A stretch of DNA of 32,000 bases from Delftia acidovorans NBRC 14950 (GTDB lineage: Bacteria; Pseudomonadota; Gammaproteobacteria; Burkholderiales; Burkholderiaceae_C). Below are positions 9,431-9,777 of this stretch, in pieces. The translations under genes and the position numbers were made by a program. Location: the NCBI RefSeq assembly GCF_001598795.1, contig NZ_BCZP01000038.1, forward strand, positions 1-32,000, in the 5' to 3' direction. How positions within the stretch are numbered: the first letter of the stretch is position 1; each line of letters begins with the position of its first letter. The notes under the pieces are model-generated. The model had not been told where the DNA came from. It worked only from the letters and a program-made list of their open reading frames with translations, and did not search any database.

Positions 9431-9757
9431 TGGCACTGCCGCATAAGCAGCTCAGAAAAAAGCGCATTCGCCGAGTGCGCTTCGTTTTTGTTCACTGCCG
9501 CATAGGCAGCTCAGAAATGTGCTCTACGACACGGCCGTGCATGCTGTCGGTTTGCTGCCGCATAGGCAGCTCAGAAACTCCTCCTTCGAGTGCTTAGCCC
9601 TGCACCCAAATTCACTGCCGTATAGGCAGCTCAGAAATGTGATCTGTCGGCAGAAGCAAAAGGCAGGTGGTTCACTGCCGTATAGGCAGCTCAGCAACTC
9701 TCCGCCAAGATGCAGGCCGCTTGAGCCCTCTTCACTGCCGCACAGGCAGCCAGGCCC
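9431..9757 (+). CRISPR. Orphan type I-F-like CRISPR mini-array, 6 repeats / 5 spacers, no cas genes in window
   Basis: 28-nt repeats:
- R1 9431-9458 TGGCACTGCCGCATAAGCAGCTCAGAAA
- R2 9490-9517 GTTCACTGCCGCATAGGCAGCTCAGAAA
- R3 9550-9577 GTTTGCTGCCGCATAGGCAGCTCAGAAA
- R4 9610-9637 ATTCACTGCCGTATAGGCAGCTCAGAAA
- R5 9670-9697 GTTCACTGCCGTATAGGCAGCTCAGCAA
- R6 9730-9757 CTTCACTGCCGCACAGGCAGCCAGGCCC (degenerate 3' end)

Spacers are 31, 32, 32, 32 and 32 nt. The repeat matches the canonical I-F family (GTTCACTGCCGTRTAGGCAGCTAAGAAA), including the Cas6f hairpin CTGCC/GGCAG. Orientation is inferred from the I-F consensus and the degenerate terminal repeat. Confidence 0.92.
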
Positions 9758-9777
9758 GCCCAGCGGGCCTTTTTCTT
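9753..9777 (+). terminator. Rho-independent terminator immediately after (overlapping) the last CRISPR repeat
   Basis: GGCCCGC-CCA-GCGGGCC stem-loop (9753-9769) followed by TTTTTCTT. There is no T-run on the opposite strand, so it is + strand specific. Confidence 0.75.

What the first reader, a model, noticed from the sequence alone, without database searches (positions are those of the whole stretch)
9431..9777. Cas-less type I-F-like CRISPR mini-array carried inside the virion-gene region of a prophage
**What the sequence shows**
- Six 28-nt repeats occur with 59/60-nt periodicity and five spacers of 31-32 nt.
- The consensus GTTCACTGCCGCATAGGCAGCTCAGAAA belongs to the canonical I-F repeat family. 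It keeps the Cas6f/Csy4 hairpin (CTGCC..GGCAG) and the 8-nt 5' handle ending AGAAA.
- I could find no Cas-like protein anywhere in 32 kb on either strand.
- The array is flanked on both sides by phage genes: the giant virion protein on the left and the 440-aa virion protein on the right.

**Interpretation**
- The simplest reading is a phage-borne solitary array that borrows the interference complex of a host I-F system.
- Its likely targets would be competing phages or plasmids (inter-phage warfare or superinfection exclusion).
- Virus-borne mini-arrays are known as a concept but are rare. This location and gene context are not something I recognise as characterised.
Basis: partly seen in the sequence, partly recalled or inferred. 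Interest (0 to 1): 0.85.

Follow-up and report, generated by a model that had tools for sequence, protein, structure and literature searches.

The report
Prophage CRISPR array aimed at rival phage
A prophage of Delftia acidovorans carries its own small type I-F CRISPR array but no cas genes, and at least four of its five spacers match one rival temperate phage family of the same host; this is a clear bacterial example of an already described phage-versus-phage strategy.

Summary
Six 28-nt type I-F repeats and five spacers lie on the + strand at 9431-9757. A terminator follows at 9752-9777. R2-R5 pass the Rfam CRISPR-DR4 threshold; R1 and R6 are degenerate.

- **Context.** The window is a prophage of Delftia acidovorans 2167. 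No cas gene was found in about 41 kb. The array sits in a low-GC accessory region on the strand opposite the virion genes. A conserved TGGTACGCT motif, read as an extended -10, lies 2 nt upstream of R1.
- **Targets.** S1 (31/31) and S3 (32/32) match uncultured viral contigs next to a CC PAM. S4 (26/32, first 20 nt perfect) and S5 (28-29/32) also have CC. All four sites belong to one temperate phage family found as a prophage in Delftia genomes, and all are non-coding.
- **Escape signs.** A resident Delftia copy has lost the PAM at the S1 and S3 sites.
- **Relatives.** Related prophages keep the same cassette ends with different spacers, lack the cassette, or retain one repeat.

This is a new member of a known kind (virus-borne Cas-less arrays). 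I did not test whether strain 2167 has I-F cas genes; strain SPH-1 does.

The parts
9420..9428 (+). TGGTACGCT, read as an extended -10 promoter element (TGn + TACGCT). It ends 2 nt before R1, so transcription would start inside the 5' end of R1.
   Evidence: The motif is conserved just upstream of R1 in all four homologous arrays (window, L006, L143, L147), even where the sequence further upstream is unrelated (L143). The consensus promoter scan reported no promoter here, so this is an inference from conservation.
9431..9458 (+). Repeat 1 (TGGCACTGCCGCATAAGCAGCTCAGAAA). It is degenerate, with a deviant 5' end shared by all homologous arrays (GGGCA/TGGCA).
   Evidence: Rfam scores it at 22.8 bits, below threshold.
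9459..9489 (+). Spacer 1 (31 nt), a copy of an intergenic intrinsic terminator of the rival phage. It forms a hairpin plus U run inside the array transcript.
   Evidence: It matches 31/31 with a CC PAM in L131 and L133. In the Delftia-resident prophage it matches 31/31 but the PAM is AC. The terminator scan reports 9460-9482.
9490..9517 (+). Repeat 2, identical to the Comamonadaceae I-F consensus repeat.
   Evidence: 0 mismatches; 46.5 bits.
9518..9549 (+). Spacer 2 (32 nt). No target was found.
   Evidence: No match in cultured phages or plasmids, IMG/VR, JGI metagenomes or the local loci.
9550..9577 (+). Repeat 3 (GTTTGCTGCC...; 2 mismatches in the 5' part).
9578..9609 (+). Spacer 3 (32 nt). 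It targets a conserved non-coding block that follows a terminator and ends 14 nt upstream of the rival phage's small terminase gene in L132.
   Evidence: It matches 32/32 with a CC PAM in L131, L132 and L133, and 30/32 in L130. The Delftia-resident copy has PAM TG and a seed mismatch. The spacer is shared with L006 with 1 mismatch.
9610..9637 (+). Repeat 4.
9638..9669 (+). Spacer 4 (32 nt). It partly matches a stretch of the rival prophage where no gene is called, left of the CI/Cro genes.
   Evidence: It matches 26/32 with positions 1-20 perfect and a CC PAM, at L159 703-734(-), which is the same site as L161 204-235(+). No exact-pattern hit in IMG/VR or metagenomes. The spacer is shared with L006 with 1 mismatch.
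9670..9697 (+). Repeat 5 (handle CTCAGCAA, 1 mismatch in the 5' handle).
9698..9729 (+). Spacer 5 (32 nt). It targets the attachment-site arm of the rival phage: the last 10 nt of tRNA-Ser(CGA) plus 22 nt of phage-side flank next to the integrase gene.
   Evidence: It matches 29/32 with a CC PAM in L134-L137. It matches 28/32 with a CC PAM at L161 11018-11049, beside the integrase and a complete tRNA-Ser.
9730..9757 (+). Repeat 6, the terminal repeat. The hairpin is intact and the 3' handle is replaced by the terminator stem.
   Evidence: The same terminal repeat occurs in L006 and L147 (a more diverged copy in L143), and as a lone repeat in L140 and L156.
9752..9777 (+). Intrinsic terminator (AGGCCCGC-CCA-GCGGGCCT plus TTTTTCTT) that closes the cassette.
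   Evidence: It is conserved in all homologous cassettes.
8757..9395 (+). Upstream neighbour on the same strand: a 212-aa ORF with a hydrophobic C-terminal half and no family match. Its stop codon lies 36 nt before R1.
   Evidence: Gene call in L009, translation, no Pfam, PHROG or PADLOC hit. In L150 this gene abuts the next gene with no array between them.
9787..9813 (.). A 27-nt copy of the 3' end of the 7935-8369(-) gene (TCACACGGGCCGCGTCCGCACCTCAGC), also present at 7935-7961. It marks a local rearrangement relative to L147, L143 and L006.
7500..12500 (.). Low-GC (56-60%), hypervariable accessory region between the giant LPD38/LPD3 protein gene and the 440-aa virion-module gene. The array cassette is one of its variable modules.
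   Evidence: Composition, GC3, mosaic synteny among 13 relatives.

Best explanation
This is a self-contained type I-F CRISPR cassette carried by a temperate phage of Delftia acidovorans.

**Layout.** It consists of a promoter-like motif, six repeats with five spacers, and a terminator. It lies on the strand opposite the late virion genes, as expected for cargo expressed from the prophage.

**Proposed mechanism (inferred, not shown).**
1. The array is transcribed from the extended -10-like TGGTACGCT that ends 2 nt before repeat 1.
2. The host's Cas6f cuts each repeat hairpin.
3. The host's Csy complex loads the 60-nt crRNAs.
4. Cas2/3 then degrades any incoming DNA that carries a matching protospacer next to a 5'-CC PAM.

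**Targets.** The guides are aimed at one rival temperate phage family of the same host genus. The sites are an intergenic terminator (S1), the conserved leader in front of the packaging genes (S3), a stretch without a called gene left of the CI/Cro genes (S4) and the tRNA-Ser/attP arm next to the integrase (S5). The prophage would therefore use the host's I-F machinery for heterotypic superinfection exclusion.

**Spacer turnover.** Spacer content most likely changes by recombination with other I-F arrays rather than by canonical leader-end adaptation.

**Shown here:** the anatomy, the repeat family, the phage context, the absence of cas genes, the protospacer matches with PAMs, the host genus of the target phage, and the turnover among relatives.

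**Inferred:** the promoter, expression, processing, interference, and the presence of compatible Cas proteins in this particular lysogen.
For: **Array and repeat family.** The array is real and of I-F type. R2 equals the consensus of chromosomal arrays that lie next to cas6f/csy3/csy2/csy1 in Alicycliphilus and Curvibacter. The same consensus occurs in Acidovorax and Comamonas arrays.

**Phage context.** Phage genes lie on both sides and no cas gene was found in about 41 kb.

**Host.** The window is from D. acidovorans 2167 (PMC5334598).

**Protospacers.**
- S1 matches 31/31 and S3 matches 32/32.
- S5 matches 29/32, with mismatches at positions 18, 29 and 30. Positions 18 and 30 are every-sixth positions, which I take from general knowledge of I-F complexes not to be base-paired.
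- S4 matches 26/32 with the 20 PAM-proximal nt perfect.
- Spacers from the related array in L143 match 31/32 and 29/32.
- Each of these six independent sites has 5'-CC in at least one target copy. At 1/16 per site, about 6e-8 would be expected by chance.

**One rival phage family.** The target TerL is 99% identical to a D. acidovorans SPH-1 protein and 97-98% identical to proteins of two other Delftia. The S1, S3, S4 and S5 sites all fall in one prophage of a Delftia genome, from the packaging genes to the integrase beside tRNA-Ser.

**Signs of CRISPR pressure.** In that resident copy the S1 PAM is AC. At the S3 site, four substitutions cluster at positions -3 to +2 inside an otherwise invariant block of about 60 nt.

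**Conservation of the cassette.** Four homologous cassettes keep the TGGTACGCT motif, the deviant R1 5' end and the terminator (three also keep a near-identical terminal repeat; L143's is more diverged) while almost all spacers differ. Among 11 internal repeats, both stem arms and most of the 5' handle stay nearly invariant, and variation sits at position 1, positions 4-5 and the loop.

**I-F immunity in Delftia.** D. acidovorans SPH-1 has a complete I-F cas operon and one large array. An AcrIF8 homologue was reported on a virus whose predicted hosts are Delftia (PMC6739104 supplement).

**Co-occurrence.** A carrier-type contig (L139) and a target-type contig (L130) come from the same metagenome, 3300038808.
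Against: - The cas content of strain 2167 was not examined, and CRISPR-Cas is variable in Delftia. It is absent in D. tsuruhatensis MR-6/3H (PMC10794605).
- No expression data exist. The consensus promoter scan found nothing, and the promoter rests on conservation only.
- Spacer 1 is a terminator hairpin between R1 and R2. It could stop much of the transcription before the other four units.
- R1 has a weakened stem, R3 has two changes in its 5' part and R5 has one change in its handle.
- The cassette is absent from 12 of 16 related viral loci, so it is dispensable.
- S2 has no target in any database.
- The S4 and S5 matches are imperfect.
Confidence: 0.72

Rival explanations
1. The cassette works mainly as an RNA decoy against the host's I-F system. 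Its repeats and non-host crRNAs would soak up Cas6f and Csy proteins, protecting the carrier phage itself, as Racr RNAs or competing crRNAs do. Targeting of other phages would be secondary.
For: - The promoter-like motif directly abuts the first repeat. [quoted passage not shown]
- Two relatives (L140, L156) retain only one degenerate repeat plus the terminator after the TACGCT motif.
- The Racr paper reports that a non-targeting crRNA also reduced interference.
- With spacer 1 acting as a terminator, the main product could be a short R1-containing RNA.
Against: - Four of five spacers have real protospacers with the correct PAM in one phage family. A pure decoy does not need that.
- Spacers have the canonical 31-32 nt length.
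- The 5' handles and stems of the internal repeats are conserved.
- No neighbouring ORF matches the sequence of any solved structure, a set that includes many Acr proteins. Racr candidates were reported to cluster with acr genes.
Confidence: 0.13
2. The cassette is a decaying, non-functional piece of a host CRISPR array. It was picked up by recombination and now hitch-hikes in a hypervariable moron region.
For: - The first and last repeats are degenerate, and R3 and R5 carry point changes.
- There is a terminator inside the array.
- The cassette is missing from most relatives, and two relatives have a collapsed copy.
- The host's cas status is unknown.
Against: - The same cassette ends (motif, deviant R1, terminator; terminal repeat near-identical in three and more diverged in L143) persist in four prophages whose spacers have almost all been replaced. 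That pattern argues for maintenance and turnover, not one-way decay.
- Repeat changes avoid the stem and most of the handle.
- Two spacers still match extant phages perfectly with a CC PAM.
Confidence: 0.1
3. One or more units, for example S2, act as phage crRNA-like regulators (Cracr). They would guide Csy complexes by partial complementarity to the host's cas or CreT promoters and silence immunity.
For: - Phage arrays of this kind, including I-F ones, have been described (bioRxiv 10.1101/2024.10.29.618823).
- S2 has no phage target.
Against: - The preprint says I-F Cracr RNAs are distinguished by shorter spacers. The spacers here are 31-32 nt.
- Four of five spacers have phage targets.
- I could not retrieve a Delftia cas locus, so complementarity was not tested.
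Confidence: 0.05

Closest known systems
Virus-borne Cas-less mini-CRISPR arrays (Faure et al. 2019 as summarised in PMC7099407 and PMC11656645; tested with Saccharolobus viruses SPV1/SPV2, PMC6858448)
   Same: The array is carried in a viral genome without cas genes. Its repeats are of the type used by the host lineage. Its spacers match other viruses of the same host. As reported for phage mini-arrays, it has no long leader, which fits spacer gain by recombination rather than adaptation.
   Different: It has five spacers rather than the one or two in the published description. The targets are a distantly related phage (TerL 32% identical, portal 24% over 144 aa), not close kin. The system is bacterial type I-F, whereas the experimental test was done in archaeal viruses. 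No mutual targeting was seen in the DNA I hold.
Prophage-located type I-B CRISPR arrays of Clostridioides difficile (PMC4173771, PMC4556805)
   Same: These are bacterial prophages that carry multi-spacer arrays without their own cas genes. They rely on chromosomal cas operons, and their spacers match other phages of the species. This rests on the titles and abstracts found and on my own knowledge of these papers.
   Different: The subtype (I-B versus I-F), the phylum and the phage type all differ. Here four spacers concentrate on one rival phage family and all four sites are non-coding.
RacrIF1 and other solitary-repeat RNA anti-CRISPRs (PMC10651486)
   Same: Both are I-F repeat mimics in a prophage intergenic region, placed directly after a promoter and ending in a terminator. 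The collapsed copies in L140 and L156 have the layout of a solitary repeat unit.
   Different: The window holds a true array with PAM-matched spacers. Racrs have no spacers and work by trapping Cas6f and Cas7f.
Phage Cracr arrays (crRNA-like regulators that silence host cas or CreT promoters; bioRxiv 10.1101/2024.10.29.618823)
   Same: Both are short phage-borne arrays, including I-F ones, that depend on host Cas proteins.
   Different: Cracr spacers match host CRISPR-Cas loci, and the I-F ones are described as shorter. Here the spacers are full length and match phage DNA.
Vibrio phage ICP1 type I-F CRISPR-Cas (as described in PMC11656645)
   Same: Both are phage-borne I-F arrays used in a conflict between mobile elements.
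   Different: ICP1 carries the full cas operon and targets a host defence island. This phage carries the array alone and targets another phage.

Membership tests
Type I-F CRISPR array | 28-nt repeat with the Cas6f stem-loop (CTGCC-loop-GGCAG) and an 8-nt 5' handle, matching the curated repeat model | tested here: met
   Rfam CRISPR-DR4 scores R2-R5 at 38.8-46.5 bits against a gathering score of 35. R2 is identical to the consensus of arrays next to csy genes.
Type I-F CRISPR array | Spacers of about 32 nt whose protospacers carry a 5'-CC PAM | tested here: met
   Spacers are 31, 32, 32, 32 and 32 nt. CC is present at the S1, S3, S4 and S5 sites and at two L143 spacer sites.
Type I-F CRISPR array | Adjacent cas1, cas2-3, csy1-3 and cas6f operon | tested here: not met
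   No Cas family or homologue was found in the window or in 8.8 kb further left. It is an orphan array.
Virus-borne Cas-less mini-CRISPR array | Lies within a viral or proviral genome that lacks cas genes | tested here: met
   Packaging, head, replication and repressor genes surround it. Homologous cassettes occur in IMG/VR proviruses.
Virus-borne Cas-less mini-CRISPR array | [quoted passage not shown] | tested here: inconclusive
   R2 is identical to the I-F consensus of several Comamonadaceae, and D. acidovorans SPH-1 has a complete I-F system. Neither the SPH-1 repeat nor the cas content of strain 2167 could be read with these tools.
Virus-borne Cas-less mini-CRISPR array | One or two spacers | tested here: not met
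   The window has five spacers, and the relatives have three or four. It is larger than the published definition.
Virus-borne Cas-less mini-CRISPR array | Spacers target other viruses of the same host | tested here: met
   Four of five spacers hit a phage family present as a prophage in Delftia genomes. The targets are distant, not close, relatives of the carrier.
Racr (solitary-repeat RNA anti-CRISPR) | A single repeat unit not associated with other repeats or spacers | tested here: not met
   The window has six repeats with spacers. Only the relatives L140 and L156 have a lone repeat.
Racr (solitary-repeat RNA anti-CRISPR) | Binds Cas6f/Cas7f into aberrant complexes and inhibits interference | not testable with these tools
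   This needs biochemistry or a phage challenge assay.
Cracr array (phage crRNA-like regulators) | Spacer partly complementary to a host cas or CreT promoter | not tested
   No Delftia cas locus could be fetched.
Type I-F3 CRISPR-associated transposon (CAST) | tnsA/B/C-tniQ with cas8/5, cas7 and cas6 next to a short array | tested here: not met
   None of these families was found in the window.

The most novel reading that the evidence does not exclude
Phage mini-arrays and solitary-repeat anti-CRISPR RNAs may be two states of one portable promoter-to-terminator cassette.
- The cassette would swap spacer-repeat units with host I-F arrays by recombination.
- Selection would retain guides against the slowly evolving non-coding control elements of a rival temperate phage: a terminator, the late-operon leader and the attP/tRNA arm.
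- The cassette can collapse to a single repeat that still binds Cas proteins.
- A guide against the rival's attachment arm would also cut the chromosome of cells already lysogenic for the rival. The carrier phage could thereby clear or kill competitors' lysogens, not only block incoming DNA.
Probability: 0.2. Interest if true: 0.65.

Novelty: new member of a known kind. Interest (0 to 1): 0.48.

Why it matters
- **A testable bacterial case.** According to the 2024 review (PMC11656645), the competition test of a Cas-less viral mini-array was done with two archaeal viruses. This case is in a culturable type strain of D. acidovorans and uses the well-understood type I-F system.
- **Identifiable opponent.** The rival is a prophage present in sequenced Delftia strains. 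Deletion, plasmid-interference and plaque assays could therefore be set up directly.
- **Signs of an ongoing conflict.** Four guides are concentrated on one rival. All four sites are non-coding. The rival's resident copies have lost the PAM at two sites. These are the expected footprints of a phage-phage arms race run through host Cas proteins.
- **A possible evolutionary link.** Within one lineage the cassette occurs full, with exchanged spacers, absent, or collapsed to one repeat. This gives a concrete series for asking how phage arrays gain spacers and whether solitary-repeat anti-CRISPR RNAs derive from them.

Tried and rejected
- **Cultured phages and plasmids.** BLAST of all five spacers against INPHARED phages and PLSDB plasmids gave no match at E <= 1. 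The targets are only in uncultured viral contigs and bacterial genomes.
- **S2 and S4 pattern scans.** Exact-pattern scans, with N at every sixth position, found nothing in IMG/VR or in JGI metagenomes. S4 was later matched only through its 20 PAM-proximal nt in a Delftia prophage. S2 remains unmatched.
- **Close relatives of the carrier.** None exist among cultured phages. Only the terL region is about 77% identical to a group of ~60-kb Pseudomonas aeruginosa phages (for example PA8 and Epa33), and the accessory region has no match.
- **Finding the Delftia Cas7f.** I searched with the Alicycliphilus Cas7f. The 120 listed hits were all at least 94% identical metagenomic variants and none was from Delftia.
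- **Repeat scan of species genomes.** The host strain's cas status is therefore unresolved.
- **Extending the window to the right.** I tried to reach the carrier's own integrase and att site. One look-up returned only short contigs and another found no record.
- **Chromosomal spacers against the carrier.** I tested 3,239 chromosomal I-F spacers from the fetched loci against the carrier. There were no convincing hits.
- **Shared spacers.** No phage-array spacer was found in those host arrays.
- **CAST reading.** Rejected, because there are no transposition or cas genes.
- **Ordinary chromosomal array beside a prophage.** Rejected, because the cassette sits between phage genes and recurs at the same place in related proviruses.
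- **Known Acr or Aca proteins next to the array.** No Pfam, PADLOC or PDB-sequence match.
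Full report
**1. The observation**

- The region 9431-9777 holds six direct repeats with start-to-start spacing of 59, 60, 60, 60 and 60 nt. 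Read as 28-nt units they start at 9431, 9490, 9550, 9610, 9670 and 9730.
- The spacers between them are 31, 32, 32, 32 and 32 nt long.
- The 28-mer GTTCACTGCCGCATAGGCAGCTCAGAAA with up to three mismatches occurs four times. None is expected in 100 dinucleotide-preserving shuffles.
- Rfam's CRISPR-DR4 model (RF01317) scores R2-R5 at 38.8-46.5 bits on the + strand, above its gathering score of 35. R1 and R6 score 22.8 and 21.4 bits.
- R1 has a deviant 5' end and a broken loop-proximal stem pair.
- R6 keeps the hairpin, but its last eight bases run into an intrinsic terminator (stem 9752-9770 plus a T run).
- Spacer 1 is itself a ten-pair hairpin followed by a T run (9460-9482).

**2. Where it is**

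- *Source.* The window is identical to Delftia acidovorans 2167 (GCA_000741825.1, scaffold KN046795.1). The match came from exact look-up of the 2105-aa protein. The strain name comes from PMC5334598.
- *Phage genes.* The window holds small and large terminase genes, an SU10-type portal, a major head protein, an SU10-type adaptor, a DnaB-like helicase, NinB and a CI-like repressor. It also holds a 2105-aa polyvalent protein with LPD38 and LPD3 domains.
- *No cas genes.* None was found in the window or in 8.8 kb further left. This rests on Pfam, PHROGs and PADLOC scans, on the precomputed Pfam calls for the genome locus, and on tblastn with Cas6f, Cas7f, Cas5f and Cas8f from Comamonadaceae loci.
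- *Local setting.* The array lies in a 5-kb region of lower GC (56-60% against about 66%) between the giant protein gene and the 440-aa gene.
- *Strand.* The array is on the + strand, opposite the virion genes. It follows a + strand ORF with a hydrophobic C-terminal half and no family match (8757-9395).

**3. Relatives of the cassette**

A scan of IMG/VR with the repeat found five viral contigs, each with a 3-5-repeat array. One of them, L006, is a relative of this prophage. A search with the 440-aa protein found 16 related viral loci. Only two of them (L143, L147) carry an array.

Aligning the four homologous arrays shows four shared features:
- a TGGTACGCT motif (TGGTACTCT in L147) ending 2 nt before R1, kept even in L143 where the upstream DNA is unrelated;
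- a deviant GGGCA/TGGCA start of R1;
- a degenerate terminal repeat, near-identical in the window, L006 and L147 and more diverged in L143;
- the same terminator.

The spacers between these ends are almost all different. Only S3 and S4 are shared, with L006, at one mismatch each.

Other states of the site also exist:
- L150 has a clean empty site, with the hydrophobic-protein gene's stop directly followed by the stop of a convergent gene.
- L140 and L156 retain only the terminal repeat and terminator after the TACGCT motif.
- In the window, a 27-nt duplicate of the convergent gene's 3' end (7935-7961 and 9787-9813) marks a local rearrangement.

Among the 11 internal repeats of the four arrays, both stem arms and most of the handle are nearly invariant. 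Variation sits at position 1, positions 4-5 and the loop.

The deviant R1 start is never copied into R2. Canonical leader-end adaptation should duplicate the first repeat. This pattern therefore fits spacer gain by recombination with other arrays, as proposed for phage mini-arrays (PMC7099407). That step is an inference.

**4. What the spacers match**

| Spacer | Best match | PAM | Site in the rival phage |
|---|---|---|---|
| S1 | 31/31 in L131, L133 | CC | intergenic intrinsic terminator |
| S2 | none | - | - |
| S3 | 32/32 in L131-L133; 30/32 in L130 | CC | conserved non-coding block after a terminator, ending 14 nt before terS in L132 |
| S4 | 26/32, positions 1-20 perfect, in L159/L161 | CC | stretch with no called gene, left of the CI/Cro genes |
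| S5 | 29/32 in L134-L137; 28/32 in L161 | CC | last 10 nt of tRNA-Ser(CGA) plus 22 nt of flank beside the integrase |

- The S5 mismatches in L134-L137 are at positions 18, 29 and 30. Positions 18 and 30 are every-sixth positions.
- Two spacers of the related array in L143 match the same phages: 31/32 in L130 and 29/32 in L159, both with CC.
- Each of these six independent sites has CC in at least one target copy. At 1/16 per site, about 6e-8 would be expected by chance.

**5. Who the target is**

- The target's large terminase is 99% identical to a protein of D. acidovorans SPH-1. It is 98% identical to one of Delftia sp. PE138 and 97% identical to one of D. deserti.
- Two adjacent loci from the genome record CP065695.1 (L159, L161) show one prophage. 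It carries CI/Cro, DnaB, NinG, terS, terL, an SU10-type portal, head and adaptor genes, RecT and an integrase. The integrase abuts a complete tRNA-Ser(CGA) gene, followed by the host's seryl-tRNA synthetase gene. The tool did not name this record's organism. The proteins that led to it carry the name D. acidovorans SPH-1.
- The S1, S3, S4 and S5 sites all lie in this one prophage. The two groups of viral contigs therefore belong to a single rival temperate phage family of Delftia.
- The rival is only distantly related to the carrier. TerL is 32% identical and the portal is 24% identical over 144 residues.
- A carrier-type contig and a target-type contig come from the same metagenome.
- A chromosomal I-F spacer of a Limnohabitans genome also matches L131 at 30/32.

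**6. Escape signatures**

- In the resident Delftia copy the S1 protospacer is intact, but its PAM is AC.
- At the S3 site, four substitutions cluster at positions -3 to +2. They destroy the PAM and change seed position 2. They lie inside a block of about 60 nt that is otherwise identical in all five sequences.
- This is the pattern expected under CRISPR selection at exactly these sites.
- It does not show whether the pressure came from phage-borne or chromosomal arrays.

**7. Mechanism**

*Shown:*
- an orphan I-F-type array;
- carried by a phage;
- with PAM-matched spacers against a rival phage of the same host genus.

*Inferred:*
- transcription from the extended -10-like motif, with a start inside R1;
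- partial termination at spacer 1;
- processing by host Cas6f, loading into the host Csy complex and Cas2/3-dependent destruction of incoming rival DNA.

Together these steps would amount to heterotypic superinfection exclusion.

*Support for available Cas proteins is indirect:*
- D. acidovorans SPH-1 has a complete I-F operon and one large array (PMC6739104 supplement).
- R2 equals the consensus repeat of I-F arrays next to csy genes in the same bacterial family.
- CRISPR-Cas is not universal in Delftia (PMC10794605), and strain 2167 was not examined.

**8. Rival readings**

- *Decoy or anti-CRISPR role.* It is suggested by the promoter-abuts-repeat layout and by the collapsed single-repeat relatives. 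The report that even a non-targeting crRNA lowers interference also fits (PMC10651486). It does not explain PAM-matched, full-length spacers. No neighbouring ORF matches the sequence of any solved structure. It may be a second function.
- *Decay of a captured host array.* It is opposed by the conserved cassette ends across four lineages with replaced spacers, and by perfect matches to extant phages.
- *Cracr-type regulator.* It could not be tested for lack of a Delftia cas locus. The preprint describes I-F Cracr spacers as shorter, and these are not.

**9. Comparison and novelty**

- The thing works like the virus-borne mini-arrays defined by Faure et al. (as summarised in PMC7099407 and PMC11656645) and tested with archaeal viruses (PMC6858448).
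- It also resembles the prophage-located I-B arrays of C. difficile (PMC4173771, PMC4556805).
- It differs in having five spacers, in targeting a distant rather than a close relative, and in concentrating four guides on non-coding control sites of one rival.
- It is a new member of a known kind. It is clear and experimentally tractable, but not surprising to a specialist.

Noticed in passing
L061:5835-6223 (Azoarcus indigens) and L105:5370-5759 (Pseudomonas kuykendallii): Back-to-back I-F mini-arrays on opposite strands share a palindromic chimeric central repeat, TTTCTGAGCTGCC-loop-GGCAGCTCAGAAA, which carries a 5' handle on both strands. There is no room for divergent promoters between the two arrays.
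   Followed up: no
L140 (reverse strand, about 2830-2923) and L156:361-425: Two relatives of the prophage keep only the degenerate terminal repeat and the terminator after a TACGCT motif. The array has collapsed to a unit that looks like a solitary repeat unit.
   Followed up: partly
L008:6507-6538 versus L008:4110-4140: Another viral contig carries a 3-repeat I-F array. Its second spacer matches the contig itself at 30/32, but next to AC instead of the CC PAM. This is as expected if the guide is aimed at close relatives while the carrier's own copy escapes.
   Followed up: partly
L004:4584-4837: A 4-repeat array on the - strand lies 18 nt from a lone I-F repeat on the + strand pointing the other way. 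That lone repeat is preceded by TGATAGGCT, the same promoter-abuts-repeat layout as in the window.
   Followed up: no
window 1177-7494 (-): A 2105-aa protein with LPD38 and LPD3 'large polyvalent protein' domains. It matches PHROG 18222 over nearly its full length (4242 bits). Its C-terminal third is 39% identical to a gene annotated as 'putative portal' in Achromobacter phage CF418P1.
   Followed up: partly
window 22635-23696 (-): A 353-aa gene in a stretch of only 42% GC lies just upstream of the small terminase gene, in a window that otherwise averages about 64% GC. It has hydrophobic segments and only weak family hits (PHROG 29215; BrxC helical domain at E = 0.0013). It looks like a recently acquired moron.
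   Followed up: no
window 27666-27775: A perfect TTCCTG x7 tandem repeat is followed by degenerate 12-nt repeats, inside the 27252-28211(-) ORF, which has no family match.
   Followed up: no
window 7500-12500 and the matching regions of L138-L151: The region between the giant protein gene and the 440-aa gene is a mosaic hot spot. Among 13 related proviruses the small ORFs are shuffled, present or absent, while the flanks stay 85-94% identical.
   Followed up: partly
L129 spacer at about 1195 versus L131:12554-12612; L012 spacer versus L007:4170-4195: Chromosomal I-F spacers of a Limnohabitans MAG (30/32) and of Sphaerotilus hippei (25/26) match the rival-type phage contig L131 and the array-bearing viral contig L007 respectively.
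   Followed up: no
L137:4373-4443: The tRNA-Ser-derived attachment core of the rival phage is 87-90% identical to segments of many small (10-13 kb) Ralstonia solanacearum phage records. This suggests that unrelated phages of Burkholderiales carry the same tRNA-Ser-derived segment.
   Followed up: no
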